A stretch of DNA of 40,278 bases, from positions 1-40,278 of IMG/VR virus record IMGVR_UViG_3300035042_000148. One strand, written 5' to 3'. The position numbers and the translations under genes were made by a program. Below the pieces are notes generated by a model, which worked only from the letters and a program-made list of their open reading frames with translations, had not been told where the DNA came from and did not search any database. Shown here in pieces: positions 6,178 through 26,739 of this stretch. This DNA comes from a virus. Taxonomy: Duplodnaviria > Caudoviricetes. Each line of letters starts with the position of its first letter. The stretch's first letter is position 1.

Positions 6178-6600
6178 CTATAGGCCAATCTTAGCGCGCT
6201 CGACGCGGCCCCAGGCGCGCACGTCTTCTACAAAGGTTTGATACTCAGTAACCAGGTCCGATTCACCAGGCTCAAACACATAGGCCCCCTGCAACACTCC
6301 AACCGCGATACGCGTCAGATACATCTCATCCTCGGCGCTGTATTTGGCCCGAATCTGCTCCTGCATGCGCTGATTAATCAGGCGACAGTGCGGACTCGAT
6401 GCTTTGATCTGCTCGCGCAACTCCGGGGTTATCGTCACCGGTTCGACAGTGATCTGATTCGGCTGCGGCGGCAAATCATCTGGACCGCTGATATACGTGT
6501 AGCCGTCCTCAAGCGTACACAGCTCTACGACATCGCTTCCTTGGGCATTATAAGTTGTATAGTCGTCGGACTCTTTTCGATAGCGGTAGATTTTTGCCAT
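6178..6600 (-). CDS. Hypothetical protein, possible tail-fibre assembly chaperone
   Basis: RBS GGAGAG before the ATG at 6600; start overlaps the 3' end of the RT gene; helical C-terminus. Confidence 0.55.
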   Translation of the reverse strand: MAKIYRYRKESDDYTTYNAQGSDVVELCTLEDGYTYISGPDDLPPQPNQITVEPVTITPELREQIKASSPHCRLINQRMQEQIRAKYSAEDEMYLTRIAVGVLQGAYVFEPGESDLVTEYQTFVEDVRAWGRVERAKIGL

Positions 6601-7552
6601 TATCACTCTCCCTGATGGTTTTTGCCAAGTGCGGCATGCTGGCCGTGCCTTTTGCGTGTCCGAGTATAGACACAACGGTATCTACATCGCCCCGCTTTAA
6701 GGCTCGGCGGAATCGATAAAGACTGTGCTTGCGCAACAAGCGACGATCGGCCCAAGTTCGCCAGCCTACGAAGTTGACGCCGCGACACGTACGCGCAATG
6801 GTAGTTTTTGAGAATTCAAGGTTGAGGTTGTCGGCGATAAACTCTTTGATGCGCTGCCTGATCGCCACGGCCGCATCTCGAGCGAGACCTATCAGCACCA
6901 GGTCGTCCACATAGCGTGCGTAGTGTCTGATTTTTAGATCGCGCTTGATGTAATGGTCAAGCGGGTTGAGGTAGATCAAGGCATAGAGCTGACTGAGTAG
7001 GTTGCCTATGGGGATCCCCAGAGGCCCATCCTGCTCTGCGTACATCATCATGACGTTAAGCAGGCGTTCGTCTTTGATTTTTCGCTCGACCAGCACGCGC
7101 AAAATGCGGCGATTGATCCGGTAGAAAAACTTTCGGATGTCCAGCTTGAGGACATAAGTTTCTGGATCGCATCTACGCAATGCATCCTGGACATGCAGGC
7201 TCGCTCGATGTGTCCCGTATCCGATGCGGCAGGCAAAGGACTCAGGGGCAAAGATACGTTCAAAAATAGGTCCTATCATCCGATAGATGGCGTGCTGCGC
7301 TACACGATCGCGGAATGCCGGAGCGGATATCAGTCGAGGCTTCGGCTTCTGCACCCAAAACTGCCAATACGGCCGTGGTCGATAAAACCCGGAGTGGATT
7401 TCATCGTAAAGGGCCGCCAGGTTCCCGCCAAGATTGGTTTCAAACTCAAAGGTGGATCGTCGGTTGCGCTTGCGCTTGCGCGCGTCGAGATAGGCCTGAT
7501 ACAGGTTGTCTCGCGTGAAAACCTTATCAAACAGCTGGCCATAGCGCTTCAT
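6548..7552 (-). CDS. brt: DGR reverse transcriptase
   Basis: KPRLISAPAFRDRVAQHAI, LKLDIRKFF, GIPIGNLLSQ, YARYVDD and GVNFVGW motifs; likely start MKRYGQLF after GGAGG; adjacent to TR and avd. Confidence 0.96.
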   Translation of the reverse strand: MKRYGQLFDKVFTRDNLYQAYLDARKRKRNRRSTFEFETNLGGNLAALYDEIHSGFYRPRPYWQFWVQKPKPRLISAPAFRDRVAQHAIYRMIGPIFERIFAPESFACRIGYGTHRASLHVQDALRRCDPETYVLKLDIRKFFYRINRRILRVLVERKIKDERLLNVMMMYAEQDGPLGIPIGNLLSQLYALIYLNPLDHYIKRDLKIRHYARYVDDLVLIGLARDAAVAIRQRIKEFIADNLNLEFSKTTIARTCRGVNFVGWRTWADRRLLRKHSLYRFRRALKRGDVDTVVSILGHAKGTASMPHLAKTIRESDNGKNLPLSKRVRRLYNL

Positions 7553-7684
7553 ACGGGCGCCTCCGGTCTTCGGCCCTGCGGGCTTACCAAAAGGAGGCGG
7601 GTCATCGATTTCGCGTGACGCTGGACGGTACATCCCTGTCGTATCCACTGCGCACTTGCTGTGCCTTGAGGTAGAGAAGAGAGT

Positions 7685-7795
7685 CGGCCCGGAGCCCCAC
7701 GTTGTTGTTGGAGTTCGTCCGGTTGTTGTTCAGGTTCAAGCCCCAAACGCCCGCATTCGAGCCGTTGTTCCAGTTGTACGACGCGATCGGGCACA
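7685..7795 (-). ncRNA. DGR template repeat (TR)
   Basis: 111 bp with 12 AAY codons; matches 8259-8369 except at 13 positions, all A on the minus strand; lies between avd and RT. Confidence 0.96.
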
Positions 7796-7814
7796 TGTAG
7801 AGGCACCGCCCATT

Positions 7815-8216
7815 TTACCATCTGTGCATTTCCTTCATTTTGACTATCCATCCGCCGATCATGCGGCCGAGTTCATCACACAGGTCGCCGATGTGGGTGT
7901 AACGCTTCTGCTCCAATTTTTCCGGATGTTCATCCTTGCGGCCATCGCGATACCGGAAATAGCCGAGCTCAAACGCGAGGAACAATTGCATGCGCAAGCG
8001 TTCGTGGGCTATGTCGAGACTGGATAGCGTGGTCTTTTTCGTGTAACGCTTTTCGCCCTCGACCACCAGATCGAACACCTCATAGGCGGTATTCCGAATG
8101 CGATTCGCCAGGGCGTATTTCTCCGATTTCGGAAAATGGTTGAGATAGCCGTTCAAGCGCTGAATAAAAATAACCAGCTTGCGCACCAGCTGAGCTGCTG
8201 CATGTATATTGCTCAT
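7815..8216 (-). CDS. avd: DGR accessory variability determinant (four-helix bundle)
   Basis: 133 aa, basic; FPKSEKYALANRIRN and ELGRMIGGW motifs; position between target and TR. Confidence 0.92.
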   Translation of the reverse strand: MSNIHAAAQLVRKLVIFIQRLNGYLNHFPKSEKYALANRIRNTAYEVFDLVVEGEKRYTKKTTLSSLDIAHERLRMQLFLAFELGYFRYRDGRKDEHPEKLEQKRYTHIGDLCDELGRMIGGWIVKMKEMHRW

Positions 8217-8238
8217 CTTAAAAGCCCTTCGCTACCGC

Positions 8239-9831
8239 TCAGGCCCCAGGGTAACAGGCGGCCCGGAGCCCCACGTAGTAGCTGGAGTACGCCCGGGAGT
8301 TGTACAGGTGCAAGCCCCAAACGCCCGCAGTCGAGCCGCTGTACCAGCTGTACGACGCGATCGGGCACAGTTCGTTGCGGATATAGCGGTAAAAATAGTC
8401 CGTACCGAAAAGGTTTGTGCCCGATGTCGACTGTCCATCCGTAAGCGGGAGCCCAAGGCAGGTGCGACGCCAGCTATCTCCGGATACATCCTCAGCCAAA
8501 ACCTGATTGGCTCCGTCGCCCATTTTCATCGAGATGGCACCGTCAGCTAAGACCAGTGGCAGCGCATCCATCATGGCGGCGGCTCCGGTAGCGCCCCAGT
8601 GGTCGGTGGCTGCTGAGTTCCCGGAGGTGAAATCGCGCATTGCGGTCGCTTCCTTGGCCGCGTAAAACGTGCCGTAGGTCAGCGATCCACCGCTGGTATA
8701 GGCTGCGTAGCCGGTGCTGTCCACACCATCGAGGGTGATATTGTCGGCATCAACCACAGTGACCGTAAATATCCTGTCGTTCAGCTCGGTCATGCCGTCG
8801 ATGCTGGTCACAAGGGCCTGCTGCCCCGTAACCAACCCATGCCCGACAACCTCAATCTGGCACGGATTGGCCTGGCTGGCAGCGCTGATCGATTTGCTGG
8901 TCGCGATACATGTCAGGCCGATCTGGATCTCGTACATCAGGCCATTGACGTCGGCGACACCGCAGGCCTGGCCGTTGTGCGTGGTCTTTGCAAACGGCAC
9001 TCCGGATCCGGTTTTGCCGCAGTTGCTGTACCCGTCAGATTGATAGCTGACGGTGGCATCATTGGCGTCTCCCAGGGCGTTATTATTGCAGCCCTTTGGA
9101 TAGTTCTCCGCGCCGGATGCGTCGTACCATGCACAATATGTTGTCGATGTAGCGGCCTGGCCATGCGCAAGAGACAGCAGGGCCAGCGCAGCCCATTGAA
9201 AACGGCTGGCGCAGTGGAAAATACTGTCTGCGTTAACCGCGCCATCCACCCCGTCGCGGGCGCGACAGGCGTTGAGTGCCTCAAAATACGCGTTGCTGCC
9301 ACACGCCGTCAGGTCGGCGATGGGGTTGTGGTCAGAGTGCGTCGATATTGGCAGACCACCGGCTATGGACGACGCAACGTACCCGGAACCCAGAGCGTTT
9401 TTGCTGCACATAAATTTATCGATGAAAAAGCCGGCTTGCTCCACGCCGCCATCGATGAAGGCTCGGTGCAGGGCGTAGCCTGCAGCCTCGGCGGCGGCGC
9501 GGGTGGTGTATGTCTTAACGCCTTCGACGTCGATGCTGTTGACCCCGTGGGCGCCGTAGGTGGGGTTGCTGGCGTGGGCGATGCGATAATAAAATTTTGG
9601 CACCCAGACCATGATGGACCCGTCGGCGTATTTGTAGTTGCCGTAGTTGGCGTGCGTCGGGTCGGTGTAACCGTAGAGCGGCGTCATCCCATCAGGGAGT
9701 GCCTCGGGCGGAGCTACGCCGACACCGAACCCGGCCGAGCCTGCCGTGCCGATGGAATTGAGCACGCCAATGAGCGACCCGACGGCGGCGTCAATTTGCG
9801 CGCCGGTGTATTGAGATTGATAATAAGACAT
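8239..9831 (-). CDS. DGR target protein; probable receptor-binding protein (Mtd-like, C-type-lectin fold)
   Basis: C-terminal VR ending VGLRA; IMVWVPKFYY, GFFIDKF and GVADVNGLMYE motifs; located in the tail module. Confidence 0.88.
   Translation of the reverse strand: MSYYQSQYTGAQIDAAVGSLIGVLNSIGTAGSAGFGVGVAPPEALPDGMTPLYGYTDPTHANYGNYKYADGSIMVWVPKFYYRIAHASNPTYGAHGVNSIDVEGVKTYTTRAAAEAAGYALHRAFIDGGVEQAGFFIDKFMCSKNALGSGYVASSIAGGLPISTHSDHNPIADLTACGSNAYFEALNACRARDGVDGAVNADSIFHCASRFQWAALALLSLAHGQAATSTTYCAWYDASGAENYPKGCNNNALGDANDATVSYQSDGYSNCGKTGSGVPFAKTTHNGQACGVADVNGLMYEIQIGLTCIATSKSISAASQANPCQIEVVGHGLVTGQQALVTSIDGMTELNDRIFTVTVVDADNITLDGVDSTGYAAYTSGGSLTYGTFYAAKEATAMRDFTSGNSAATDHWGATGAAAMMDALPLVLADGAISMKMGDGANQVLAEDVSGDSWRRTCLGLPLTDGQSTSGTNLFGTDYFYRYIRNELCPIASYSWYSGSTAGVWGLHLYNSRAYSSYYVGLRAACYPGA
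8259..8369 (-). repeat. DGR variable repeat (VR)
   Basis: Encodes CPIASYSWYSGSTAGVWGLHLYNSRAYSSYYVGLRA at the 3' end of the target gene. Confidence 0.96.
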
Positions 9832-9832
9832 G

Positions 9833-10045
9833 TCATACCTCCCGTTGGATAGCAAACGGCCGCCCTGCGGAGGTCGTTAGCCGTTCGTGACCGCCGATGG
9901 TGTCAGCGGTCAAAAAAAGATTACCCGTGGCGAAATCCCGTACCTGCATCGCCACCGCTGGTGACGCCTCGGCCAGATAGCGCAGAGACAACCCTACAGG
10001 ACTCCCCAGGTGGATCGCGTCTTTACTGCCGCCGAAAAGCTTCAT
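9833..10045 (-). CDS. Hypothetical protein
   Basis: 70 aa; tightly packed between neighbours, with a TGATG overlap at its start. Confidence 0.55.
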   Translation of the reverse strand: MKLFGGSKDAIHLGSPVGLSLRYLAEASPAVAMQVRDFATGNLFLTADTIGGHERLTTSAGRPFAIQREV

Positions 10046-10407
10046 CAGCTCACCCCGCGTCCGAACAGGTTGCAGCGGAACACCGTCTGTAATGTTGCGC
10101 CATTGGCGTAGACCAGACGGAAAAACGGCAGGATCACATCGACAACGAAGCCACCGGTGGCCTGCCCTGCCGCTACGGTGATCGTCTCCTCGTGATCGAC
10201 GTTGGTTCCGTCGGCGCTGAACTGGATCTTGAGCGTGCCAGCTTGATCACTATACGCAGCACCGAGAAGTTTGCTCAGATTGTCGCCGCGTACCCAGTCG
10301 CTGGTCGAGGATGCGGACGCAGCCAAAGGCGTTACATCGGACAGGATATGCAGCGGACCGTGATAGCGCAGGTTTTTAGTGGGCTGGTTTTTGACCTCGA
10401 ATCCCAT
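10045..10407 (-). CDS. Hypothetical virion-associated protein
   Basis: Beta-rich 120 aa directly after the tape measure gene, with RBS. Confidence 0.65.
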   Translation of the reverse strand: MGFEVKNQPTKNLRYHGPLHILSDVTPLAASASSTSDWVRGDNLSKLLGAAYSDQAGTLKIQFSADGTNVDHEETITVAAGQATGGFVVDVILPFFRLVYANGATLQTVFRCNLFGRGVS

Positions 10408-10422
10408 GGAATCCCCTTTCCA

Positions 10423-13020
10423 TTAGCCGACCTTGCGGCGGTCGTATTCCTTGAACTTGCGATACAGAGCACGAGCGGCAGACTCCCCTATCTCGTTGCC
10501 GATCTGCGCGCCCGATTTATTGGTTCCCTCAACCGAGATGGAGATCCCGCCGAGGTGAATTGTCGTGTTCCCGCCCTTCCCCGCGTTATTGCGCGTAAGC
10601 ACCTCCTCTCCGCGATGAAGCTGGTAGAGACCTGTGCGCGGAATATAGGCTGTGCCTATGGCAAGGCCTGGCCCTTTGTTTATGTCCGCTATGGACATAA
10701 CTTTAAACCCGGCAGAATTCGTACCGCCTGAACTTGCACCAGATGTTGATGCGGAAGCCTTACTTGAAAGACCGACAGACCCAGGTACGTTGCCAGGTAC
10801 GTTGCTGACGTAATTCACGGTGATGGTGATTTCCTTGTCCTGCAGCTTATTGAGGGCCGCCTGAACTGCGTCAATCTTGCCGGTTGCCTGGTCGTCTGCC
10901 GAGAGTACGACTGTTTTTGACAGGGCGAGGATCCGTGCATCGAGTGCGATCACGCGCTGTTGCAGCTCATCCATGGCAGTCTGGGCCGTGGCCATCTCTG
11001 CGGCCAGGTTGGCGGCTGATTGTTTGGCCTGATCGACTTCGGCCTTCTTGGCGGCTTCGGAGGCGGCCTGCATGGCTTCGAAACGTTGCTGCGCCTGGTC
11101 GTATATCTCGAGGCTGCTGATGATAACCTGGTCGCCGTCGCGCACTTCGTTGGGCAGCTGCTTGAGCTTGTTCATCGCCTCCTGTAGGGCATCGATGCGC
11201 TTCTGCCCGGTCAGCTGCATGGCCTGTGCCTGGGCCTGGTCGATGCTTTCCAACTGCTGAAAATACTGCTCATAGGCGCTGAGTTGTTCGGCAGGCGCGT
11301 ATTTGTCGGATAACTCAGCACCAAGATCGGAGCCGAATTTCTTGACTGCGAGCAGCTCATCCTGCTTTTTCTTCATGGTCTCCAAGGCCGTCTCATGCAT
11401 GGCCTGAAGCTTGTCGTAATAGCTCTGCCATGCGCCAAGGCGCGCCTGCGCCCAGGTCTTTTCCGTCTCGGCGATATTGACCTGCTGCTGTGCCAGATCC
11501 GCCTGCTTGACCTTCACCCCATCGAGGACCGTGCCGATCTCTTTCTGTGCGCCGGCCTGAGTTGCATAAATCTGATCGAGCACGGACAAGTATTGCCGCA
11601 GAGGCTGGGCCAGGTTGCTTGCCACCCTTCCCGTTCGCTCGAAATACTCGGCCTGCCGATCCAGATCCCTGCCGTAACCGCTTTCGGCGACCTTGAGTTG
11701 TTCCTTGCCGAGATCCTTGATCAACGAGCTGTAGCGCGATATCGCCGAGCTGGCCGAGTCAACGGCTTTGGCCTGTTCCTCTGCGCTGTTGGCCGCATCC
11801 TCCCCGGCGGCCGTAGCGGCCGCCATGGCGGAGGTAGCCTCTCCTGCCTTGCCGCTGATCACGTCCCAGGCCGTGGCGAGAGAATCGCGGCCATCGTCGG
11901 CCAGATTGTCTGCAGCGGCAAGCGAGGCATCTGACATCATACGAATCTCTTCTGCAATCGGACGCACGGCCCGACCGAGTATGGGAACTTTAGCGGCAAG
12001 CTCGGCAACGCTCGCGATATATTTCGTGATGGCCCCATAGGCAAACGTAATGGCAGACGCCACACCCTGGAATATGCCCAAAACAGCTGTTCCAAAAGCA
12101 AGCAGTGCCCGCCCGCCTGTCTCGCGAAGATTGGTCATGGTGGCCTGCATTCGCTGCAGACGTTCCGCAGCCGTCACGCTGGACATACCAACATCGTCGA
12201 TGATTTCCTGGCCGGCGGCCATGGTGGCGTTGAGAAACGCCTGCTTGCGGTCTGCGTCCGTCAATTTGTCCGCCGTTATACCGAGGCTTGCAGCATAAGC
12301 CTCATTGGCTCCCTCGACATCGAGCATGATGCCGAGGTTGTCGAGGATCTGCTTGCTCTGCCGGCCGACGGCGAGGGAGAGATCCTCGAAGCTCTTCGTG
12401 ATCGTCTGTCCGGTAACGCGGCTTGAAGCCCGAGCTATCTCCATGAGCTTGGGAAGATACTCACCCTCGATGCCGAGCAACATGGAGGTGCCCGCCTTTT
12501 CGATCAGCTCCTGGGTGGATATGGTGCCGGCAGAGATCTTTTTCAAATCCGCCAGCAACTGGTCGGCATTCAACCCTTTGGACAAAGACAGATTGCCAAA
12601 GGCTTGCCGCTTCTGCAGGCCCATGGCAGCGTTTTCGGCCTCTCGAAAGCCCTGATACATGGCCGCGACAGCCGCGCCAACGGCGGCCGTCACGCCCAGC
12701 CATTGAGACTTGAACTTTTGCAGCAACGACTCGCGCCGCCCGAACTGTTCGGTGTCGATCGCTTCCAGCTTGCCGGCAAGGGCACGTTCGGCGCGCTCGA
12801 TCTCATCGGCCGTGGTCAGGCTACTGCTTTTGATGCGTTCATATGCAGCCGTGGCGGCTTCGCGCTTGCGATCAAAGGCCACGCTGCTCTTGGTGCCGAG
12901 CTGGGCGAAATCACGCTCGAGCACATGTGCCACGTCCGATCCAGTCCGCTGCATTTTGCGCATGGCGGCTTCGGCGCTCTTGACGTTTCCACCTATGATG
13001 ACGCGGATATCCTTGGCCAA
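10423..13020 (-). CDS. Tail tape measure protein
   Basis: 865-aa Ala/Gln-rich helical protein after the tail chaperones; GRQSKQILDNLGI motif. Confidence 0.9.
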   Translation of the reverse strand: MAKDIRVIIGGNVKSAEAAMRKMQRTGSDVAHVLERDFAQLGTKSSVAFDRKREAATAAYERIKSSSLTTADEIERAERALAGKLEAIDTEQFGRRESLLQKFKSQWLGVTAAVGAAVAAMYQGFREAENAAMGLQKRQAFGNLSLSKGLNADQLLADLKKISAGTISTQELIEKAGTSMLLGIEGEYLPKLMEIARASSRVTGQTITKSFEDLSLAVGRQSKQILDNLGIMLDVEGANEAYAASLGITADKLTDADRKQAFLNATMAAGQEIIDDVGMSSVTAAERLQRMQATMTNLRETGGRALLAFGTAVLGIFQGVASAITFAYGAITKYIASVAELAAKVPILGRAVRPIAEEIRMMSDASLAAADNLADDGRDSLATAWDVISGKAGEATSAMAAATAAGEDAANSAEEQAKAVDSASSAISRYSSLIKDLGKEQLKVAESGYGRDLDRQAEYFERTGRVASNLAQPLRQYLSVLDQIYATQAGAQKEIGTVLDGVKVKQADLAQQQVNIAETEKTWAQARLGAWQSYYDKLQAMHETALETMKKKQDELLAVKKFGSDLGAELSDKYAPAEQLSAYEQYFQQLESIDQAQAQAMQLTGQKRIDALQEAMNKLKQLPNEVRDGDQVIISSLEIYDQAQQRFEAMQAASEAAKKAEVDQAKQSAANLAAEMATAQTAMDELQQRVIALDARILALSKTVVLSADDQATGKIDAVQAALNKLQDKEITITVNYVSNVPGNVPGSVGLSSKASASTSGASSGGTNSAGFKVMSIADINKGPGLAIGTAYIPRTGLYQLHRGEEVLTRNNAGKGGNTTIHLGGISISVEGTNKSGAQIGNEIGESAARALYRKFKEYDRRKVG

Positions 13021-13023
13021 GAT

Positions 13024-13700
13024 TTACTCCTGATCGGTTTGCGGTTCGTTGGCCTTAATCTCTTCCTCGACGATCGCGAGCAGTTCGAGATCGTCCCTGT
13101 CCACTTCGCAGATCCGGCAGATCGTGCCGGGATCTACTGCGCCGTGCAGCCTGACCAGCAGACTGCGGATCTCCATGATACGGACCGCTCCGCCCGGCAG
13201 CGGCGACACGGGGCAGCCCACATCCGTCTCACACTCGGGCGTCAACCCGTCCACCTCACGCGCTTCGGCGCAGGCCTCGCAGCTTACGCCGGGGAAGTCG
13301 GCCCGGGCGCGGAGGTGGTATCGGAGTTTTTTTCCAGTTCAGCCTTTTCGGCCGACAACATCTTGTCGAGGCTGCACGGCGCGTCCAGGACCAGGAGTCG
13401 GAACTCCGTGCATTCCTGCATCATGAATTCGATGTTCTCAGGCGTACAGGGATAGTCCGCCTCGCCGTCCTTGAGACCTCGCCAATCCTCGACAACCGCC
13501 TTGGCCAGGTCGGCGCGAAAACGTCTGTCATCGAGCTTTTCCACGCGCTGATGCGTGCGCGGGTCAAACCGGACGGCGGTGGCTGCGGCCTTGATGGCGT
13601 CAAACTCCCCCTGGGGAATATGCCGACACAGCACGTCAACATCGTCGAACAGGGGCAGCCAGACTTTGAGGTCCTTCTTTTTCAATCGGGAAATATCCAT
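13024..13700 (-). CDS. Tail assembly chaperones G (13284-13700) and GT (-1 frameshift product ending 13024)
   Basis: Slippery A AAA AAC at 13326-13332; the -1 frame is open into ORF 13024-13254; lies between tail tube and tape measure. Confidence 0.85.
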
Positions 13701-13794
13701 TGCATACTCCTTCGCCGCAGGCTACGGCGGCACAAATCCTCACATGTCAGGGTTAAAAATCGGGGCCGGGCCCGGCCCCATGGCATCCGTCTGG

Positions 13795-14853: not shown

Positions 14854-14856
14854 GGC

Positions 14857-15066: not shown

Positions 15067-15067
15067 G

Positions 15068-16897: not shown

Positions 16898-16906
16898 CAG
16901 CTCCCC

Positions 16907-17682: not shown

Positions 17683-17710
17683 ATATCTCCCTTTGTTCGG
17701 ATACTCCAGA

Positions 17711-17737
17711 ATGGGGAGGAGGTCGACTCCTCCCCAT
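17711..17737 (-). terminator. Stem-loop after the major capsid gene
   Basis: ATGGGGAGGAG-GTCGA-CTCCTCCCCAT perfect inverted repeat. Confidence 0.6.
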
Positions 17738-17757
17738 GGTTGCAGCCGCCGAACGGC

Positions 17758-18717: not shown

Positions 18718-18744
18718 GGATTATCTCCTTTCCATCACCGACCG

Positions 18745-19131
18745 TTAGCTGACGGTCTCGGTGGCGTTGTAGTCGTAGGGGATCACTTCGATAATGTCGC
18801 CGTCGGCCGTCGCGGCCTCCAGGGCCTTGCCGATCTTGCGATAGGTTCCGGCAGCGGCGGGAAGAGCCTGAACCTTGCCATCGGCGGCAGCGAACACATC
18901 GGCATCCGCATCAATGGCCCCGGCGGCGGTCATCTCGAACGTCCCGGCATCGTTGAGCAGCCGCGCGGCGAGCAGATCGCCCTGGGCTGCGGCGGCATAT
19001 TCGGACACCCCGATGGGGTCGTCGGTATCCGTGACGGTGTTATGCACCACCTGCCCGCTCGAGAGTTTGACCAGGCGCTTGGCGGAAACCGCCCCGCCGG
19101 CCTCGAAAGTTTTCTTTCCGTTTTCGGTCAT
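18745..19131 (-). CDS. Capsid decoration / cement protein (DUF2190-like)
   Basis: Ala/Gly-rich 128 aa ending IGKALEAATADGDIIEV. Confidence 0.8.
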   Translation of the reverse strand: MTENGKKTFEAGGAVSAKRLVKLSSGQVVHNTVTDTDDPIGVSEYAAAAQGDLLAARLLNDAGTFEMTAAGAIDADADVFAAADGKVQALPAAAGTYRKIGKALEAATADGDIIEVIPYDYNATETVS

Positions 19132-19164
19132 GGGTAAATCCTCCGTAAAGGGATGGTTTCCTGG

Positions 19165-20592
19165 TTATTTCGCCTGCTGATCCTTATCGAGCCAGGCCTT
19201 GTGCAGATCGGGATACTCCCTGGCCATGGCGCTGACAGCTTTGCCCTTGCCGCAACCGTGCTCTGCGCGATAAGCCTTGACCTTGGCCTCAAAATCTTCC
19301 GTATCCTCCCCCTTGGTTTTGCCCAGGGGCTGCTGGCCGTTCTCGCGCAAGCCTTCAAGGATCTCCTGACGGCTTTCCAGATCGGCTGAAGAGTCGCCCC
19401 CCCCGAAAGAGATGCCCAAAGCGCCGATATCTTCGGCGGTCAGGCCTTTTTCGACCACGGCGGAAAACTTCTTGCCCGGCTCTTCGCCGAACCCGGCGGA
19501 AACCAGGGCAACAATACGCGTGCGCTCATCGGCGACGCTCTGTTTGGCCGCTTCGGCGCTTTCCTCCGCAGCGGACTCGCGGCCTTCATCCAGCACAGCC
19601 TGGTAAAGCTCGGGATGCTTGGCCTTCAATTCTTCTTTGTTCATGGCGTGCTCCTCAGTTGAAGGTTTCGCCCCGGCATCACCGGCCGCGGCTTTCTGTT
19701 TTTGCGTGCGCCGGTCGGGCTGTGTGCCCGAGGCCAGCTGATCTATGAGTTCATCGAGAGTGGCAACACCGTCCACCAGCCCGACGCTTATGGCCTGCGA
19801 ACCGAGAAAAACCCGCCCGTCGGCCCATTGCTTGTGATCCTCGACACTCAGCCCGCGATGCTCTCCGGCAAAGTCGGTAAAGGCGGTGTAGATATGGTCG
19901 AGCTGCGCCTTGATATAAGAGCGGCCTTCTTTGGTCAGAGGCGAATAAGACGAAACGACCCGTTTAAAATCCCCTGCCGTGATTTCGGTAATGCGCTCTC
20001 CATACATCTCCATCCGCTTTGACACGTCGACATGAGCAGCGACAACGCCGATGGAACCGATGGGGTTGGTATCGCTGGAGATATAGATCTCGTCGCAGGG
20101 CGCGGCCATCCAGTAACCTGCCGAGCAGATCATGCCGTCGGTGAAGCCGATCACGGGCTTGTTGCCGCGAAACTTGGCCAGCAGTTCGGCGGCCTCCGCC
20201 GTGCCGTCAACCGTGCCGCCCGGCGTGTCGAAATACGGGATGATGCCGACAATGCCGGGGTCGTTCTGCGCAGCGGCAAAATCCCGCATGAAGATCTGGC
20301 TGGAGCAGCCCCCGCAGATCTCCATGAACCAGGTCATGCGCTTGGCGATGACATCGTGCACGGGGATGACGGCCACGTTGTCGATCACCATGTAGGTGCC
20401 CCGGCCTTCGACGCGACGACCTTCGGAGGCCGCCACGATCGCGGCGACGGCTAGAGGATCGCGTTTTTCGATGCCGAGATCCTTGATATTGATCTTGTCG
20501 CCTTTGAGATGGCGCTTGTAAATGTCCTGGATCTCCCGATGGGTTTCCGACAGGATTGCCCAGGGACCATTGACGATGTCGATAAGACGCAT
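19165..20592 (-). CDS. Prohead protease (S49, lambda gpC-like) with C-terminal scaffold region
   Basis: DTPGG, CSAGYW and IGSIGV motifs; possible internal start MNKEELKAKHPEL with GAGGAG RBS. Confidence 0.9.
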   Translation of the reverse strand: MRLIDIVNGPWAILSETHREIQDIYKRHLKGDKINIKDLGIEKRDPLAVAAIVAASEGRRVEGRGTYMVIDNVAVIPVHDVIAKRMTWFMEICGGCSSQIFMRDFAAAQNDPGIVGIIPYFDTPGGTVDGTAEAAELLAKFRGNKPVIGFTDGMICSAGYWMAAPCDEIYISSDTNPIGSIGVVAAHVDVSKRMEMYGERITEITAGDFKRVVSSYSPLTKEGRSYIKAQLDHIYTAFTDFAGEHRGLSVEDHKQWADGRVFLGSQAISVGLVDGVATLDELIDQLASGTQPDRRTQKQKAAAGDAGAKPSTEEHAMNKEELKAKHPELYQAVLDEGRESAAEESAEAAKQSVADERTRIVALVSAGFGEEPGKKFSAVVEKGLTAEDIGALGISFGGGDSSADLESRQEILEGLRENGQQPLGKTKGEDTEDFEAKVKAYRAEHGCGKGKAVSAMAREYPDLHKAWLDKDQQAK

Positions 20593-20602
20593 AACTTCCC
20601 CT

Positions 20603-22189
20603 TTATTGCTCAGGCTGACTGGCCAGCTTCGCCAGGTCGAACCCGGGCAGATCGGCCATGGTCAGTCCGAGTTCTTTCATCAACTCGCGCTCCTTGGCTA
20701 TCTGCCGCAGCTCCTCTTCGTAATCCTTGCCCTGTTCGGCATACCAGTCGGCCATGGTCATCATGTTGGAGACGAGAGCCTCCTTGCCGGAGGCGATCTC
20801 CTTGACCGGATCGATATGGCCGCGCTTGGGCGGGGTCCAGGTGGCGTTTGTCCACAGCGCTTTGGCGCGATAGAAATCGGGCGCGCCGGCAGGCAGATGG
20901 ATACGTCCGCGCAACCAGGCCTCTTCGAAAACCATCTCCCACACCGGCTGACAAAAATGATTGACCAGCCAGTTCTGATAAAACTGAATCAGCCGCCAGG
21001 CCTCCAGCAGCGCGGCCCGTGCGGAGGAGTAATTCGTCTTGCTGAAATCCTTCGACACCACTTCATAGGGCAAACCGCATGCGGCCCCCATGGCGCGCAG
21101 CAGCGTCTCGACAAACACCGGGAAGCTGTTGCCGGGACGATTGTTGTTGCCGAGGATGTGGGGCTTTTGATTGAGCGAACCGTAAAGGACCTGACCCGGA
21201 TGGTATTCCTTGACCTTCTGAGTTCCCCCGGATGCCGTGGGAGTATCGGTCGTCTCTCCGGTATACTCCCCCGGTTCTTCCCCGTCAGGTGTCTCGATAA
21301 AAACCGGGAATGACGCGGCCAAGATGGCCCCAATCACTTCGAAATCCATGTAATCGTCATAATCACGGAAGAGCTTGATCACCGGAGCCAGCGCAGAAAC
21401 TCCGCGCACCTGCTCGGCATCTTTGCGATGGAACCCGTGGAAGATGCCACGGCGGTGTCCCCTCCACGCGGGGATCTCCCGAAAATGCTGGCTGGTCAGG
21501 GTGGTGGTGAGATGGCCGTCGTCCGGATCGGCGACATAGTAACGAAGCCGCTCGCTATGCGGGCCGAGACGAATGCCGTCGCGGATATCCTTATCGCTGA
21601 AAAGATTATGAGGAGTGCGCAGGCGGCGCGGATCGAGCACCTGGATGGCGAGATCGAAGGTTCGGCCAGGGCCGGAGACATTGACGGGCAGATTGAGATA
21701 CTCGCCGCCACCTATCATGTTGCGGATGGTTAGATACTGAATATCGGAAAAATGATCTTCACCCTCGGCATCCGCCTGGCGGGACCATTCCCAAAAACAC
21801 CACTCCACCTGCTCGGCGATTTCGGCGGCGGCCTCTTCGCTAATGCCAAGCCGCTTGAAGGCCGGCTTGCTCTGCGGGAGAAGACCCGGCCCGCCGACCG
21901 TAGACATGGCGGTTGAATCAACAATGCTTGTTGCGTGGGGATTGTTGGCGATCAGATCGGCGGAGCGATCGGAGATGGTGAGACGTTCGCGCTCTTCGGA
22001 GTAGCGGTTGAGCCGCCGGACAAACCAGTTACCGAGGCTGCCCTTGCGGCCCGCTCCGGTACGGGATACCCCGCCCGCCATAAAGCCAAGAGCCGTGCGG
22101 GCCTTGGCCCGACGCAAGGCGCGGCCAGGGGAAAAATAGCCGATGGCGCGATCCAGCGCATTCATCTGCAGGAGAGCCTTGCGCTTCAT
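20603..22189 (-). CDS. Portal protein, lambda family
   Basis: QVRGVSALAP, DFSKTNYSSARAALLE and HIDPVKE motifs. Confidence 0.93.
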   Translation of the reverse strand: MKRKALLQMNALDRAIGYFSPGRALRRAKARTALGFMAGGVSRTGAGRKGSLGNWFVRRLNRYSEERERLTISDRSADLIANNPHATSIVDSTAMSTVGGPGLLPQSKPAFKRLGISEEAAAEIAEQVEWCFWEWSRQADAEGEDHFSDIQYLTIRNMIGGGEYLNLPVNVSGPGRTFDLAIQVLDPRRLRTPHNLFSDKDIRDGIRLGPHSERLRYYVADPDDGHLTTTLTSQHFREIPAWRGHRRGIFHGFHRKDAEQVRGVSALAPVIKLFRDYDDYMDFEVIGAILAASFPVFIETPDGEEPGEYTGETTDTPTASGGTQKVKEYHPGQVLYGSLNQKPHILGNNNRPGNSFPVFVETLLRAMGAACGLPYEVVSKDFSKTNYSSARAALLEAWRLIQFYQNWLVNHFCQPVWEMVFEEAWLRGRIHLPAGAPDFYRAKALWTNATWTPPKRGHIDPVKEIASGKEALVSNMMTMADWYAEQGKDYEEELRQIAKERELMKELGLTMADLPGFDLAKLASQPEQ

Positions 22190-22422
22190 CGGGCAGGCCT
22201 CCCGATGACGGTAACCGAAGCGCGGCGACCGAGCAAGCGGGCTTTTTCCTTGCCGAGCCAGTCGAGCGTGCGGCGGATCTCCGGCAGGTCGGCGCTTGTC
22301 CAGGTGCGATCGGAGCCGCCCGGCGTGGACATGCGCACACTTTGACCGCCGGCACAAGCCTTGAGGGCCAGTTTATATTCGGCGATCTGCTCTTCGATCT
22401 CTGTGAGGGTAAATACAGACAT
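22186..22422 (-). CDS. Head completion protein (gpW-like)
   Basis: 78 aa just upstream of portal; GQSV...RTWTSADLPEI motif. Confidence 0.75.
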   Translation of the reverse strand: MSVFTLTEIEEQIAEYKLALKACAGGQSVRMSTPGGSDRTWTSADLPEIRRTLDWLGKEKARLLGRRASVTVIGRPAR

Positions 22423-22461
22423 GCCGCGATGATTTCAAAAATATCGCGGCATGTCATTTAC

Positions 22462-22488
22462 GTGGTGGACGAGGTTGACGTGGTTGAC
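22462..22488. promoter_or_regulatory. Three tandem 9-mers upstream of the head operon
   Basis: GTGGTGGAC GAGGTTGAC GTGGTTGAC in an intergenic gap. Confidence 0.5.
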
Positions 22489-22521
22489 AAAATATTTAGA
22501 ACAATCGCATTTTTTCTAAAT

Positions 22522-22755
22522 CTATGCCCCATCATCGGTCTGCCGACGCTTGTAATCCTCTATCGAATCGATATAGAGCCGCAGCCCCCTCCCGTTGCCG
22601 ACAAAGTACCCCTTAATATCTGTACGATGATAAAGGTTGTAGATATGTTGCCGCGAGGGAGGATGCTCAGGGCAAAGATGATAACGGGCTTGCTCGACAT
22701 TGCATGTCGGGCGGCGGTCACCCTGGGCATAGGGTATCGGAGTACGGTATGGCAT
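22522..22755 (-). CDS. Small winged-HTH (excisionase-like) DNA-binding protein
   Basis: SRQHIYNL...GRGLRLYIDSIEDY; RBS GGAGGAG. Confidence 0.65.
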   Translation of the reverse strand: MPYRTPIPYAQGDRRPTCNVEQARYHLCPEHPPSRQHIYNLYHRTDIKGYFVGNGRGLRLYIDSIEDYKRRQTDDGA

Positions 22756-22756
22756 A

Positions 22757-24745
22757 TCATCTCCTCCTGTTGAACCATCCGGGACGATTGCGTCCGGAAG
22801 GTTGAGCACTGAAACGGTCATTGTTATCCGATGCCGGCTGAGCCTGGGGCGTTTCTATTTTGGGCTTTTCCTCTTCCTTGCCCCGCGCTTGCATGGCCAG
22901 GGCCTCCGCCAGCTTGGCATAGTTCGGGTTGAGGATCTGCCGAACGGCCATGTTGCCGACACGCACGTCCAGGGCCTCATTGCGCTGAAATCCGTCACGC
23001 AGAACCCAGACGGTTTCCAGTTTGCCGGTTTTGCGGTTCTTTGCCTTTTTGGGGCGCTCGGCGCAGAGCATGCGGAAATACTCGAAGTCGTATCCCATAT
23101 GCCAGTGGCAGCAGCGAGGGCCCGACTCGGTCGCCGTCAACCAGGACATCAGCAGATCCTTGCCGGTATCGACACCAAGCTCATAAAACGGCACCTTGTA
23201 TTTTCGGCTCTTGCTGGGCTTGCGAGGCACCAGCGGCAGCCCCCTGAGGTTGCTGCCCTTGTGCGCGATATACCTGCGGGACCGTCGGACGAATTTTGCC
23301 ACCATGTCGGCACGATAGCCGAGGTCAACCCCGAGGCGAACGATGGATAGCTCTGCGCCGGACTCATGGATATATACGGTCTCCTGCGCCCAGTCGTGCA
23401 GCTGGTCCCATACTTCGTCCTTGCTCGTGTCGCCATGAAAGACGCGATACTCGATGCTCCAACTCTGGTGCCCTTCGCCCCAAGCGACAGCCTCGACCTC
23501 GATGCGGTTGAGCTGCACGTCCGCATCGGCCGTAATCACCACAGCTGCCAAGGGCACCTTCCAGCTTGCGCCTATCGGCCAGTAATCCCGTCGACGTTCG
23601 TAAAGCTCTTTTTCTCCGGTCAGCTCGCCTTCGGTGTCTTCCGGAACCGGCAGGCCGAGGCAATCGTTATAGTAATACTGCAGATTGGCGTCCGACGGCT
23701 CGACCAGCGTCATCACATAAGCCTGGGCGATCTTGTGGAACGGCACGAACCGCGAGATCAGCGGCGGGATGTGCGCCCACACGCGTGAGGCGCGATCGAT
23801 AGGAACGCCTCCAGGCCGGGGCCGCCAACCGTGCCATACCTGCGGCGGATCGTGTAGGGCAGCCGCCTGCCGCACGGCTTCGTTCCGGTCTTCTTCGTCC
23901 CACTTAGCTTGACAGTGTGGGCACTCGTACCAGGCGCTGCCCTTGTCGGCCAACTGAGCAGGATCGATCACGCCATCGGGCCAGCGGACGTGCGCGGCAT
24001 CCATGATATGGGCCTCGCCGCAAGAAGGGCATACCGGCCAGAAATCGATAAGGACCTGGGCGAGCTTCTGAGCCGCCCAGATCCGTCCCTCCTCGACCGA
24101 TGCCGTACATGCCTCGATGATCTTGTAGCTGTCCTCAAATGCCCTGAGGCGCGCACGGGCCTTGCGAATTGCGGACTCAGGCCACAGATCCACTTCATCG
24201 AAAAAGCCATATCGGATCGGCTTGGAGGCCAGACGCCCCTCGGACTGCGCCCAGCCGAGATAGGTGATCATGCCGTTACGCAGCCGAATGCGCTTTTTGC
24301 TGATATCGTCGGGGTTCCCCGTCTTGATCCGGCGCAGCGACGGGGTGTTGTCGATCATCGGTATCAGGCGATCGTCGAGCGTCTCGGTACCGGTATCGCG
24401 GTCCTGCATGACGATCAGCGAGGGGCCGGGATCGTGAACAGCGTTACCCCCCCAGCAGGTATGCATGAAGTCGGATTTCGCCGACTGGCTGCCGCCAGGC
24501 AAAAACAGTTCGCGCAAATGTTCCTGGCAATAAAGATCGAGCAACCCCTTGAGATAGGGTGTCACATCGCCGTCATACGGGCCTGGCATGGAGCTGACCG
24601 CAATATAGCGCTCCCCCTGGGCCCACTGGCTGAAGGTCTCATCCTCCTGAGCACGGAAGACCTGCTTTTCCCCCTGCAGCAGCTTGAACTTGCGCGGCGG
24701 CGGGGATGGAAGCCAGTCGTATGTTTCGGCGAGGCTTGTCGTCAT
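22757..24745 (-). CDS. terL: Terminase large subunit, lambda gpA family
   Basis: TPYL, GGSQSAKS (Walker A variant), FFDEVD, CPSC/CPHC, ADVQLNRIE and RNEALD motifs; ATG overlaps the intI stop (ATGA). Confidence 0.93.
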   Translation of the reverse strand: MTTSLAETYDWLPSPPPRKFKLLQGEKQVFRAQEDETFSQWAQGERYIAVSSMPGPYDGDVTPYLKGLLDLYCQEHLRELFLPGGSQSAKSDFMHTCWGGNAVHDPGPSLIVMQDRDTGTETLDDRLIPMIDNTPSLRRIKTGNPDDISKKRIRLRNGMITYLGWAQSEGRLASKPIRYGFFDEVDLWPESAIRKARARLRAFEDSYKIIEACTASVEEGRIWAAQKLAQVLIDFWPVCPSCGEAHIMDAAHVRWPDGVIDPAQLADKGSAWYECPHCQAKWDEEDRNEAVRQAAALHDPPQVWHGWRPRPGGVPIDRASRVWAHIPPLISRFVPFHKIAQAYVMTLVEPSDANLQYYYNDCLGLPVPEDTEGELTGEKELYERRRDYWPIGASWKVPLAAVVITADADVQLNRIEVEAVAWGEGHQSWSIEYRVFHGDTSKDEVWDQLHDWAQETVYIHESGAELSIVRLGVDLGYRADMVAKFVRRSRRYIAHKGSNLRGLPLVPRKPSKSRKYKVPFYELGVDTGKDLLMSWLTATESGPRCCHWHMGYDFEYFRMLCAERPKKAKNRKTGKLETVWVLRDGFQRNEALDVRVGNMAVRQILNPNYAKLAEALAMQARGKEEEKPKIETPQAQPASDNNDRFSAQPSGRNRPGWFNRRR

Positions 24746-25752
24746 AAAAGGCGATCCAGAGGACTGCAAACGGCATTCGGTTGTTGCATGACATGGGTAT
24801 AGACCATGGTGGTTTCAAGCTTCTTGTGACCGAGGAGGGATTGCACTGTTCGAATATTTTCCCCGCCCTCAAGCAAATGAGTCGCAAAGCTGTGACGAAA
24901 GGCGTGCGGCGTGACGTGTTTGACAATTCCGGCCTTGCGGGTGGCCACTGCGACCGCCTTTTGCACCGCCGTTTCGTGTAAATGGTGGCGGCCCTGTTCT
25001 CCTGTCCGTCTGTTTACCCAACTGGACGTTGCCGGAAAAACATACTGCCAGCCCCATTCGAATGGAGCCCTTGGATATTTGCGGGGCAGGGCTCCGGGCA
25101 AAGGGGCCGCGCCAAAACCGTCCCGAAGATCCCGCTCGTGAATTTCTTTGACCTTCTGCAGGTGCCTTTTGAGACGGTCCACAATCATACATGGCAAGGG
25201 AACGACTCGGTCTTTATTACCCTTGCCCTCGCGAACGACAATCTGCATCTGTCCGAAGTCGACATCCTGAACGCGGAGTTGCAAAGCCTCGACCTTATGT
25301 CGCAAACCGGCACCGTACATGATGGCGCAGATCAGCCAGTAATCACCGCGAAGGTAATCCAGCACGGAAACAACCTCATCTCTGGTCATGACCACAGGCA
25401 AACGTTTGGCGCGTTTAGCCCGAAGAGCATCGATCTTGCCAAGGTTAATGCCAAGCACTTCCTGGTACAAAAACTTCAGAGCATTAAAGGCAACGCTTTG
25501 AGTTGACGCCGACACTCTCTTTTTAACCGCCAGGAAGGTTAGATACTGTTCGATCTCGTTTTCCGCCATATCTTGAGGATGCCGCTTTCCATGAAAAAGG
25601 ATGAATTCACGGCAGTAATTGCAATAGGCGCTAGCGGTAACATCGCTGCGGCGCAAAACCCGGCATTTTTCACGGAGGCGGTCCAACAATTTCGGCGGCT
25701 TTTGCGGACTGCGTTGGATGGGATAGGCGTTTGTTTTTACAGAATTTTCCAT
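24742..25752 (-). CDS. intI: Integron integrase (IntI-type tyrosine recombinase)
   Basis: N-terminal domain (FHGKRHP...VSASTQ); catalytic GLR, GKGNKDR, HAFRH, LGH and YTH; IntI-specific insertion LPGALPRKYPRAPFEWGWQYVFPA...RHH; C-terminal SPLD; RBS AAGGAGG. Confidence 0.92.
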   Translation of the reverse strand: MENSVKTNAYPIQRSPQKPPKLLDRLREKCRVLRRSDVTASAYCNYCREFILFHGKRHPQDMAENEIEQYLTFLAVKKRVSASTQSVAFNALKFLYQEVLGINLGKIDALRAKRAKRLPVVMTRDEVVSVLDYLRGDYWLICAIMYGAGLRHKVEALQLRVQDVDFGQMQIVVREGKGNKDRVVPLPCMIVDRLKRHLQKVKEIHERDLRDGFGAAPLPGALPRKYPRAPFEWGWQYVFPATSSWVNRRTGEQGRHHLHETAVQKAVAVATRKAGIVKHVTPHAFRHSFATHLLEGGENIRTVQSLLGHKKLETTMVYTHVMQQPNAVCSPLDRLL

Positions 25753-25779
25753 AAAAACCTCCTTCCTGCTAAGATGCCG

Positions 25780-25805
25780 GTTTGGGTGGTTAACAGTCGT
25801 TGTTT
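25780..25805 (+). other. Candidate attI site (crossover G|TTGTTT at 25799/25800)
   Basis: GGTGGTTAACAGTC-GTTGTTT just upstream of intI; GTTGTTTTGC is the exact complement of GCAAAACAAC at the cassette's attC. Confidence 0.65.
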
Positions 25806-25807
25806 TG

Positions 25808-25933
25808 CTATTCGTTCTCGCAACTTTCGCAGACACACTCAGGGCAGAGAACAGCCCCGCATTTTTCACATTCATGAGCATCTTCTTCCGGGAAATCGCA
25901 GCCACAATTTTCACACAATGTCGTTATGTCCAT
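25808..25933 (-). CDS. 41-aa Cys-rich acidic microprotein (cassette 1; absent from the ORF track)
   Basis: MDITTLCENCGCDFPEEDAHECEKCGAVLCPECVCESCENE*, four CxxC; RBS GGAG; fills the attI-attC interval. Confidence 0.7.
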   Translation of the reverse strand: MDITTLCENCGCDFPEEDAHECEKCGAVLCPECVCESCENE

Positions 25934-25958
25934 TTTCGTCTCCGTAGGATGCAGCGCA

Positions 25959-26016
25959 AAACAACCAGTCAATCAACACGGACTCGTAAACTCGCCGGTT
26001 ATCGGCATCGTTAAAC
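25959..26016 (+). other. attC site (58 bp)
   Basis: R'' AAACAAC, L'' CAATCAAC, ACGG...CCG, L' GTTATCG, R' GTTAAAC (GTTRRRY); the bottom strand folds with extrahelical G and T. Confidence 0.85.
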
Positions 26017-26571
26017 AACAAACACCCCTCGACGATGCAGCTCATATACAATCAGAGCTTCATGCAGAGCGTCATCGGCACCACGGTGCAATTCAACATA
26101 TTCTTCATCCGGGAAAAGCTCAGACCATGCTTCCTCGACTTTTGGCCATTTGTATGAACCGTAGCGCAGAGGGTAAAGCTTGCAGATTGGAGTGGCCAGC
26201 AGCATGGGGCAAGGGAGCTTTTTACCAAACCGGACACCCCGACTTTCCAAAAAACCAAAATCGAACGACCGATTATAGGCAGTCGCACCCAAAGGATGCT
26301 TATCAATGATCTCCTGAATATCTGGGAGCAAATCATGAAGCATCGGCCCCTGCCGCACCTCTTCAGCCGTGAGAGTTGAGTTACGGAATATCCAGCCCAT
26401 TGGGGCCTCAAAATGTTGATCATTTAAGGTGGTCTCCTGGCAGACCGTGTTAAAAACCGTATCGACATTTCCAGTGCTGAGGTCGAGAGACACAATACCT
26501 ACCTCGACAATACTTCCACCTTCTTTTTGAAACCCTGTAGTCTCTATGTCTATGACTAAAATTTTCTCCAT
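26011..26571 (-). CDS. DEDDh 3'-5' exonuclease (DnaQ-like), cassette 2
   Basis: VIDIETTG, AYNRSFDFGFL and HRGADDA motifs; stop codon lies inside R' of attC; visibly more AT-rich than the phage backbone. Confidence 0.9.
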   Translation of the reverse strand: MEKILVIDIETTGFQKEGGSIVEVGIVSLDLSTGNVDTVFNTVCQETTLNDQHFEAPMGWIFRNSTLTAEEVRQGPMLHDLLPDIQEIIDKHPLGATAYNRSFDFGFLESRGVRFGKKLPCPMLLATPICKLYPLRYGSYKWPKVEEAWSELFPDEEYVELHRGADDALHEALIVYELHRRGVFVV

Positions 26572-26607
26572 TCCATCATCCTCCGAATCCCTGCTGGTCG
26601 GTAACTG

Positions 26608-26739
26608 TTATCTTCCCATCCGCCGCGCCTCGCGCATGGCGGCGTTCCACGTCTCTACGTCGTACCGTTTCGACAACGGCACCAGATAGCGGCTATCGTA
26701 ATGTTTGACGATATAGGCAATGAGTTTCTCAGCCGGCAT
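26608..26739 (-). CDS. 43-aa hypothetical protein
   Basis: MPAEKLIAYIVKHYDSRYLVPLSKRYDVETWNAAMREARRMGR*; fills the gap; absent from the ORF track. Confidence 0.5.
   Translation of the reverse strand: MPAEKLIAYIVKHYDSRYLVPLSKRYDVETWNAAMREARRMGR

What the first reader, a model, noticed from the sequence alone, without database searches (positions are those of the whole stretch)
6548..26616. Two independent diversification engines in one 38-kb phage
Seen: a DGR (point hypermutation) and an integron (gene capture) in the same prophage, each embedded in an essential operon. Inference: the phage varies both host recognition and accessory cargo. I am not aware of this combination being described, but cannot check.
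Basis: inference. Interest (0 to 1): 0.8.

Follow-up and report, generated by a model that had tools for sequence, protein, structure and literature searches.

The report
Phage with hypermutator and mirror-image integron
This dormant bacterial virus carries two separate variation systems: a retroelement that has rewritten the tip of a likely host-binding tail protein, and a gene-capture system (integron) beside its DNA-packaging gene whose small cassette faces backwards compared with bacterial integrons and is also found, letter for letter, in an unrelated virus, so phages likely trade genes through integrons of their own.

Summary
Both parts are real and the contig is not chimeric. The 38-kb prophage (att core in tRNA-Val) has an intact DGR: 14 of 14 VR/TR mismatches lie at adenines, and a relative's target gene differs only in the VR. 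It also has a true integron integrase (TIGR02249 397 bits, cut-off 265) whose stop overlaps terL's start, an attI-like site and one 211-bp attC cassette (one, not more). Two other viral records hold both modules. The cassette gene lies on the attC bottom strand, the mirror image of bacterial integrons. The identical cassette, cut at the crossover points, sits in an unrelated integrase-less phage. At least 65 distinct IntI loci occur in IMG/VR records, and their arrays mostly share this polarity. The pairing itself looks coincidental: a complete DGR with IntI was seen in only 2 lineages among 70 records, with no enrichment or shared part. The integron is often broken in relatives, and this attC folds poorly. 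My literature searches found no report of the combination or of the mirror polarity. This scan noted mirror cassettes before on other DNA, mostly without an integrase.

The parts
2243..2294 (.). attL core, 52-bp repeat of the tRNA-Val 3' end
   Evidence: joined to the right end (attP form) in relative L008
6178..6600 (-). 140-aa ORF overlapping the RT 3' end; a similar ORF follows the RT remnant in G045; function unknown, possibly travels with the DGR/tail module
   Evidence: likeness seen by eye; no PHROG hit
6548..7552 (-). DGR reverse transcriptase, intact, YVDD motif
   Evidence: PF00078, phrog_1423, translation
7682..7795 (-). DGR template repeat (TR), AAC-rich; identical in relative G030
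7815..8216 (-). avd accessory gene
   Evidence: PF22296, phrog_3206; NF033474 at 74.5 bits, just under its cut-off of 80
8256..8369 (-). DGR variable repeat (VR) at the C-terminus of the target; the only VR in the window
   Evidence: 14 of 14 mismatches at A; no second VR found
8239..9831 (-). DGR target, 530 aa, in the tail module; predicted fold most like the DGR variable protein TaqVP, with an inserted FCCH-like domain; likely receptor-binding
   Evidence: AlphaFold mean pLDDT 91, Foldseek 5vf4 E 1e-11, TMq 0.40, PHROG tail hits
22757..24745 (-). terminase large subunit; its ATG overlaps the intI stop codon
24742..25752 (-). integron integrase IntI, 336 aa, intact; R151 K177 H283 R286 H309 Y318 invariant in 20 homologues; integron-type insertion aligns with V. 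cholerae IntI4
   Evidence: TIGR02249 397.5 vs 265, PDB 2a3v E 1e-75, alignment
25753..25805 (+). attI-like site with crossover G at 25799; similar sequence in L003, L007, L044, L045, which diverge right after the crossover
   Evidence: contig branches at 25797 and 25802
25800..26010 (+). gene cassette, 211 bp; its first bases are complementary to its own R'' box over 10 bp; identical copy in unrelated virus records L158/L159
25808..25933 (-). cassette ORF, 41 aa, Cys-rich (CxxC) with an RBS-like site; coded on the attC bottom strand, pointing towards intI
   Evidence: no PHROG hit
25959..26016 (+). attC site (top strand +, bottom strand -; 6- and 5-nt spacers and extrahelical G and T on the minus strand); weak folder
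26011..26571 (-). DEDD exonuclease; its stop lies in the R' box; fixed flank of the array, shared with G030 (90% aa)
26743..27216 (-). AAA_33 / kinase-like ATPase; part of the roughly 2.5-kb insert absent from relative L012
27490..28185 (-). terminase small subunit (weak PHROG hit)
   Evidence: phrog_57 E 4e-7
38958..40046 (+). prophage integrase, separate from IntI (TIGR02249 only 40 bits)
40180..40254 (-). tRNA-Val(CAC) holding the attR core

Best explanation
A temperate phage carries two mechanistically independent modules: an ordinary DGR that has rewritten adenines in the tip of a likely receptor-binding tail protein, and a phage-resident integron between terS and terL whose integrase likely swaps mirror-built cassettes with other phages. 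Shown: anatomy of both modules; VR-only divergence between relatives; cassette sets that differ from the G|TT crossover onward; an identical cassette in an unrelated phage; cassette genes on the attC bottom strand. Inferred: the whole region is likely one leftward lytic transcript running through the array into intI and terL, so no integron promoter (Pc) is needed. IntI would be made together with terminase, when replicating phage DNA exposes single strands. IntI picks the attC bottom strand (Nivina 2016), so only cassettes whose ORF lies on that strand would be read in this operon, which would explain the mirror polarity. Bacterial-type cassettes would land antisense and stay silent. The two modules share no part and co-occur because both are common add-ons in this group of temperate phages.
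For: DGR: (14 differences in 1593 nt, all in the VR at TR adenines). IntI. Crossover-exact divergence from G030 at both ends of the array, and G030's two contig ends branch into two different attC after the same AAC. Loose ends at 25797, 25802, 26009 and 26013 in 4 runs. The 211-bp cassette is identical in L158/L159, which share only 220 nt with the window; that 100%-complete record G097 has no match to IntI or to this terL. Polarity: 107 of 114 seed attC hits have the bottom strand on the intI-sense strand (duplicates included). Pfam hits in phage-type arrays: 29 of 130 ORFs on that strand vs 1 of 122 on the other (P 2e-8). The reverse holds in the chromosomal-type array L071 (0 of 8 vs 4 of 14) and in hand-picked ORFs of bacterial genome loci (0 of 7 vs 9 of 10). 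Independence: RT matches in 8 of 70 IntI records; a complete DGR in only 2 lineages; DGR in 3 of 25 terL relatives without IntI; no enrichment.
Against: No expression or recombination data. The resident attC does not adopt the recombinogenic fold as its lowest-energy structure (pfold about 4e-5, about 3e-3 as a circle; median 0.10 for 85 phage sites; shuffle z only -1). IntI is frameshifted in G030 (73-nt deletion) and internally deleted in L006/L007, so a host IntI could be doing the moving. No promoter or terminator beyond chance near the array. The TM-score to TaqVP is modest (0.40). The attC detector is my own heuristic, trained on these loci. IMG/VR records are often fragments, and some may include host DNA.
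Confidence: 0.72

Rival explanations
1. The integron is a passenger: a bacterial intI with attI was captured once and is decaying, and the cassettes are moved by host chromosomal integrases, not by the phage enzyme.
For: IntI is broken in 2 close lineages; the array has one weak attC; an IntI-less phage carries the same cassette; viral IntIs are scattered over the tree among bacterial ones (FastTree, weak deep support); Qi 2023's complete phage integrons are fragments of bacterial ones.
Against: The IntI belongs to a well-supported clade of full-length homologues at 70-82% identity with all catalytic residues. It has an RBS and overlaps terL. 31 of 32 viral IntIs tested pass TIGR02249. Cassette polarity is opposite to the bacterial arrays tested, so the cargo is not simply bacterial.
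Confidence: 0.17
2. The two engines are functionally coupled or selected together, for example DGR modules moving as cassettes or both being needed for broad-host life.
For: A second unrelated phage has IntI plus a full DGR (G065; 13 of 13 mismatches at A). In L059 a DGR ends with its RT cut off at an attC of an IntI array. Relatives L027 and L028 carry a two-target DGR at the same terS/terL junction.
Against: In the window the modules are 15 kb apart with no attC near the DGR. There is no enrichment (3 or 4 of 65 vs 3 of 25, P 0.3-0.4), and only 1 of 18 IntI records at least 90% complete has any RT match, a remnant without avd or TR.
Confidence: 0.08
3. The inverted ORFs come from occasional top-strand mis-insertion of normal bacterial cassettes, or the contig is chimeric.
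For: Top-strand recombination does insert cassettes backwards (Nivina 2016, passages); assembly graphs branch at the array.
Against: Mis-insertion would keep the ORF on the attC top strand; here ORF and bottom-strand features lie on the same strand. Two other records hold both modules on one contig.
Confidence: 0.03

Closest known systems
Integrons and CALINs in phage genomes (Qi et al. 2023, PMC9892861)
   Same: IntI, attI, attC and cassettes in temperate phages; DNA methyltransferases among the cargo; phage attC sites recombined by IntI1 in their assay.
   Different: They found 3 complete integrons and 1 In0 in 10,705 genomes, of bacterial type (Shewanella M16-3 has ORFs divergent from intI). 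The parts I read (abstract, part 2 of 7, section 3.4) report no ORF-on-bottom-strand polarity, no intI-terL overlap, no cassette shared between phages and no DGR. Supplements not seen. Here one scan gave 87 IntI matches in viral contigs.
Bacterial integron (IntI/attI/attC; V. cholerae IntI4 PDB 2a3v; attC anatomy per Nivina 2016, PMC5027507)
   Same: IntI passes TIGR02249; attC has R and L boxes, 6/5 spacers and extrahelical G and T; attC orientation relative to intI is the usual one; the cassette ends are complementary.
   Different: The cassette ORF is on the bottom strand and points towards intI; expression would come from an upstream phage operon, not from Pc; intI is embedded in the packaging genes; no recalled LexA-type box was found upstream of intI.
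Bordetella BPP-1-type phage DGR (target-avd-TR-RT; name recalled) and TaqVP (PDB 5vf4)
   Same: Same gene order, adenine-specific VR/TR differences, C-terminal VR in a protein that folds like a known DGR variable protein, location in the tail module (Roux 2021, passages: viral targets are mostly tail proteins).
   Different: Nothing substantial; the target has an inserted FCCH-like beta domain, and 2855 homologues were found. No significant hairpin was found after the VR.
Bacterial integrons as anti-phage defence banks (bioRxiv 10.1101/2024.07.02.601686; listing and start of abstract only)
   Same: Cassette arrays as stores of conflict genes.
   Different: Here on the phage side. Cargo in related arrays includes 12 methyltransferases, Mom, Lar and 2 Acb2/Tad1-like genes (16 of 130 ORFs), but enrichment over neighbouring genes (2 of 55) is not significant (P 0.10).

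Membership tests
Diversity-generating retroelement | RT of DGR type, intact | tested here: met
Diversity-generating retroelement | TR/VR pair differing only at TR adenines | tested here: met
   14 of 14; relative's VR also differs only at A positions
Diversity-generating retroelement | Avd accessory gene | tested here: met
   PF22296 above cut-off; NF033474 74.5 vs 80, just below
Diversity-generating retroelement | VR at the C-terminus of a CLec-type target | tested here: met
   best fold match is TaqVP, E 1e-11, TMq 0.40
Diversity-generating retroelement | DNA hairpin downstream of VR/IMH | tested here: inconclusive
   TR and VR diverge after a GC-rich end, but the fold is not better than shuffles (z +0.85)
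Diversity-generating retroelement | Target binds a host receptor | not testable with these tools
   inferred from position and fold
Integron | IntI-family tyrosine recombinase with catalytic residues and the integron-specific insertion | tested here: met
Integron | attI next to the intI start, where new cassettes enter | tested here: met
   conserved site with GTT crossover; relatives diverge right after it; assigned by position and conservation, no attI model available
Integron | attC with R''/L''/L'/R' boxes and extrahelical bases | tested here: met
   own detector, score 23 vs shuffles; weak folding
Integron | Cassettes move as units cut at G|TT | tested here: met
   identical cassette in other contexts, with exact ends
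Integron | Cassette ORFs on the attC top strand, read from Pc away from intI | tested here: not met
   ORFs on the bottom strand, 29 of 130 vs 1 of 122 Pfam hits; window ORF likewise
Integron | IntI catalyses attI x attC recombination | not testable with these tools
   needs an assay
Integron | SOS/LexA control of intI (common, not universal) | tested here: inconclusive
   three recalled box patterns gave no hit upstream of intI; host unknown

The most novel reading that the evidence does not exclude
Phages run their own integron network, separate from the bacterial one. IntI-bearing temperate phages like this one make the integrase together with terminase and act as helpers that shuffle mirror-built cassettes, many of them anti-defence genes, among co-infecting phages, including integrase-less ones. 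The mirror polarity keeps host defence cassettes silent in the phage and phage cassettes silent in the host. With its DGR, this phage would vary both how it enters cells and how it beats their defences.
Probability: 0.45. Interest if true: 0.9.

Novelty: new variant of a known kind. Interest (0 to 1): 0.68.

Why it matters
Integrons are seen as bacterial systems, recently as banks of anti-phage defences, and complete ones in phages were thought to be rare captured fragments. Dozens of phage-resident integrases with mirror-built cassettes shared between unrelated phages point to a phage-side counterpart and to a source of IntI for the integrase-less phage arrays. This window supplies a complete, small, testable set (IntI, attI, attC, cassette) plus evidence of recent exchange. 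The DGR-plus-integron pairing gives one phage in which point hypermutation and gene capture could be followed side by side, but the pairing alone says little.

Tried and rejected
Second attC or cassette around the exonuclease: none. Second VR elsewhere in the window: none. Rfam: only the tRNA. First heuristic attC scans missed the window's own site because of its second bulge; the profile-based scan found it and was not seeded with it, although a similar site from L044 was among the seeds. Longest-ORF and stop-position tests of polarity were noisy (79 sense vs 41 antisense; antisense stop matches also occur in the canonical array), so Pfam and blastp evidence was used instead. One search used wrong frames for RT and IntI and was redone. 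Promoter/terminator scan: at chance level. No RNA holder listed. Metagenome scan for the cassette start: 0 hits; 2 of 6 viral hits (L162, L163) were chance matches of about 20 bases. Anti-defence enrichment in arrays: not significant (P 0.10). Host not identified: the flank gene has no named homologue; names among homologues (Desulfobacula, Geobacteraceae, Syntrophotaleaceae) and oil-field runs only hint at an anaerobic Desulfobacterota host. The 909-aa gene has no family beyond viral hypothetical proteins. The IntI tree left out 11 loci with broken or partial ORFs, and deep nodes are weak, so no claim of monophyly. A second look at further runs over the array was not obtained, so within-population cassette variation rests alone.
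Full report
Setting. The window is one virus record of 40,278 bases. It is a prophage bounded by a 52-bp repeat at 2243 and 40180, the latter in tRNA-Val, with its own integrase and repressor at the right end. Nearly all other genes run leftwards: replication, terS, terL, lambda-type portal, protease, capsid, tail tube and tape measure. A relative (G030/L008) has the two ends joined through the 52-bp core, so this phage group excises. The best sequencing-run holders are oil-field and aquatic metagenomes. The host was not identified.

The DGR is ordinary and recently active. The order is target-VR, avd, TR, RT, downstream of the tape measure gene. All 14 of 14 TR/VR mismatches are at TR adenines. 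In G030 the TR and RT are identical, while the 1593-nt target gene differs at 14 positions, all in the VR and all at TR adenines. The target model (pLDDT 91) best matches the DGR variable protein TaqVP (E 1e-11, TMq 0.40). Receptor binding is inferred from this fold and from the tail location. No second VR exists, and the expected hairpin after the VR was not significant.

The integron is real but minimal. IntI passes TIGR02249 and aligns with V. cholerae IntI4 over its length. It keeps the catalytic residues; a one-residue insertion after R151 is shared by its clade of 70-82% homologues. Its stop overlaps the terL start. Upstream lie an attI-like site (crossover G25799), a 211-bp cassette with a 41-codon Cys-rich ORF, and a single attC. 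The isolate-derived relative L012 has terS, a small ORF and terL with none of this 2.5-kb insert. Among terL relatives the terS-terL gap runs from 11 to about 5,000 nt. IntIs only 41-52% identical to this one sit at that junction in L015, L018, L023, L025 and L026, so it is a hotspot.

Cassettes move. G030 shares the exonuclease and attI but diverges right after the AAC at both ends and holds other cassettes. Its two contig ends share about 140 nt and then branch into two different attC sites. Contigs of 4 runs have loose ends at 25797, 25802, 26009 and 26013 (one run may be the source sample). The window's cassette is identical in L158/L159, which share nothing else with the window (220 nt in all) but also carry G030's first cassette (438 nt, 97.7%) and one of its attC sites. 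Its first 138 nt also occur in L160, behind a site that is not an attC. The 100%-complete record behind L159 has no IntI match and no match to this terL. Against activity: the resident attC has pfold about 4e-5, in the low range that Loot 2017 (passages) links to poor excision. IntI has a 73-nt frameshifting deletion in G030 and a large internal deletion in L006/L007.

Polarity. On the gene strand the attC reads AAC, 6-nt spacer, L', loop, L'' with extra G and T, 5-nt spacer, GTT. I take this as bottom-strand anatomy: extrahelical bases near L'' and AAC in R' are from Nivina 2016 (passages); the spacer lengths are recalled. So attC lies the usual way relative to intI, but the ORF is on the bottom strand and points to intI. 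An alignment-based scan of viral contigs gave 87 IntI matches (79 loci kept). With the other loci these make 65 distinct integrases; 31 of 32 tested pass TIGR02249, and 37 phage-type loci have 110 attC sites upstream. I gave Pfam the longest 140 of 187 sense and 140 of 170 antisense ORFs. Leaving out three isolate-derived loci treated as chromosomal-type controls, hits were 29 of 130 sense and 1 of 122 antisense. L071 gave 0 of 8 and 4 of 14, and hand-picked ORFs from five bacterial genome loci gave 0 of 7 and 9 of 10. Cargo includes 12 DNA methyltransferases, Mom, Lar and 2 Acb2/Tad1-like genes (16 of 130), against 2 of 55 in neighbouring ORFs (P 0.10): suggestive only.

The combination. RT matches were found in 8 of 70 IntI records. 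Two belong to this lineage and three to one unrelated phage with a full DGR (13 of 13 mismatches at A). One is a DGR whose RT is cut at an attC (L059), one is an RT remnant (G045), and one is a group II intron-like RT (L049, judged by eye). Among records at least 90% complete the count is 1 of 18. Among 25 terL relatives without IntI, 3 have DGRs (L010 left out because it was found through its RT). The rates do not differ (small numbers, fragments). So the pairing is real, recurs and is uncommon, and nothing links the two mechanisms.

Mechanism, as committed. The DGR rewrites the target tip by the established route. The integron likely works inside the packaging operon: IntI is made with terminase, picks folded bottom strands, and inserts cassettes at attI just ahead of intI. 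Because transcription flows towards intI, only mirror-built cassettes would be expressed. Loss of intI would freeze the array. Transcription and catalysis are untested.

Literature. Searches. None returned a report of DGR with an integron in one phage (0 papers; 6 papers, of which one, PMC11054128, was checked by passages and is unrelated, the others seen only as listings), nor of mirror polarity. The library lacks most subscription papers. Qi 2023: abstract, part 2 of 7 and section 3.4 read; supplements not seen, and they may show ORF strands. Roux 2021: passages; 0 occurrences of 'integron' in the main text. In GenBank phages, 9 of 50,697 records match IntI at E 1e-40 or better. Earlier notes of this scan describe mirror cassettes in other phages, mostly without integrase; I read them. 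No note held the DGR-IntI pairing.

Verdict. The DGR is a known kind; the integron is a new variant of a known kind; the pairing is probably incidental. Interest 0.68, carried by the complete phage-type integron with direct evidence of cassette exchange.

Noticed in passing
L027:6841-9804 and L028:1-2850: terL relatives carry a two-target DGR (small duplicated targets, avd, TR, RT) at the terS/terL junction, the same hotspot that holds the integron here.
   Followed up: partly
L059:4135-5338: A DGR (VR/TR, avd) whose RT ends after 147 codons at an attC of an IntI array; possibly a cassette inserted into the RT gene.
   Followed up: partly
L160:2950-3138: The window's cassette start sits behind a long palindrome that is not an attC, suggesting insertion at a secondary site in another phage.
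   Followed up: partly
L114, L094, L092, L113 attC loops: Several attC loops appear to hold an RBS and ATG on the bottom strand, so ORFs may start inside the site (seen by eye).
   Followed up: no
L005, L057, L060, L063, L065, L076, L082, L086, L087: IntI is followed by a primase or by the prophage integrase instead of terL, so phage integrons sit in several operons.
   Followed up: no
window 30608-30895: Nested inverted repeats of a TGTCCGG-type unit after the primase/helicase gene; likely the phage origin.
   Followed up: no
window 28206-29366: Full-length beta sliding clamp (dnaN) gene just upstream of terS, conserved in many relatives.
   Followed up: no
window 2460-5189: 909-aa likely tail protein with short internal repeats and no family match beyond viral hypothetical proteins.
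   Followed up: partly
L156 (KX853513, Rctr41k) 4680-5678: A GenBank phage has an IntI-like gene annotated as xerD, in line with its neighbours; no attC was found by my detector.
   Followed up: partly
L049:7369-8715: Group II intron-like RT about 1.3 kb upstream of an IntI-terL locus; could be an attC-targeting intron (idea recalled, not tested).
   Followed up: no
L016:2520-7488: About 5 kb of small genes with weak attC-like sites between terS and terL and no IntI; it shares a cassette gene with IntI-bearing L015.
   Followed up: partly
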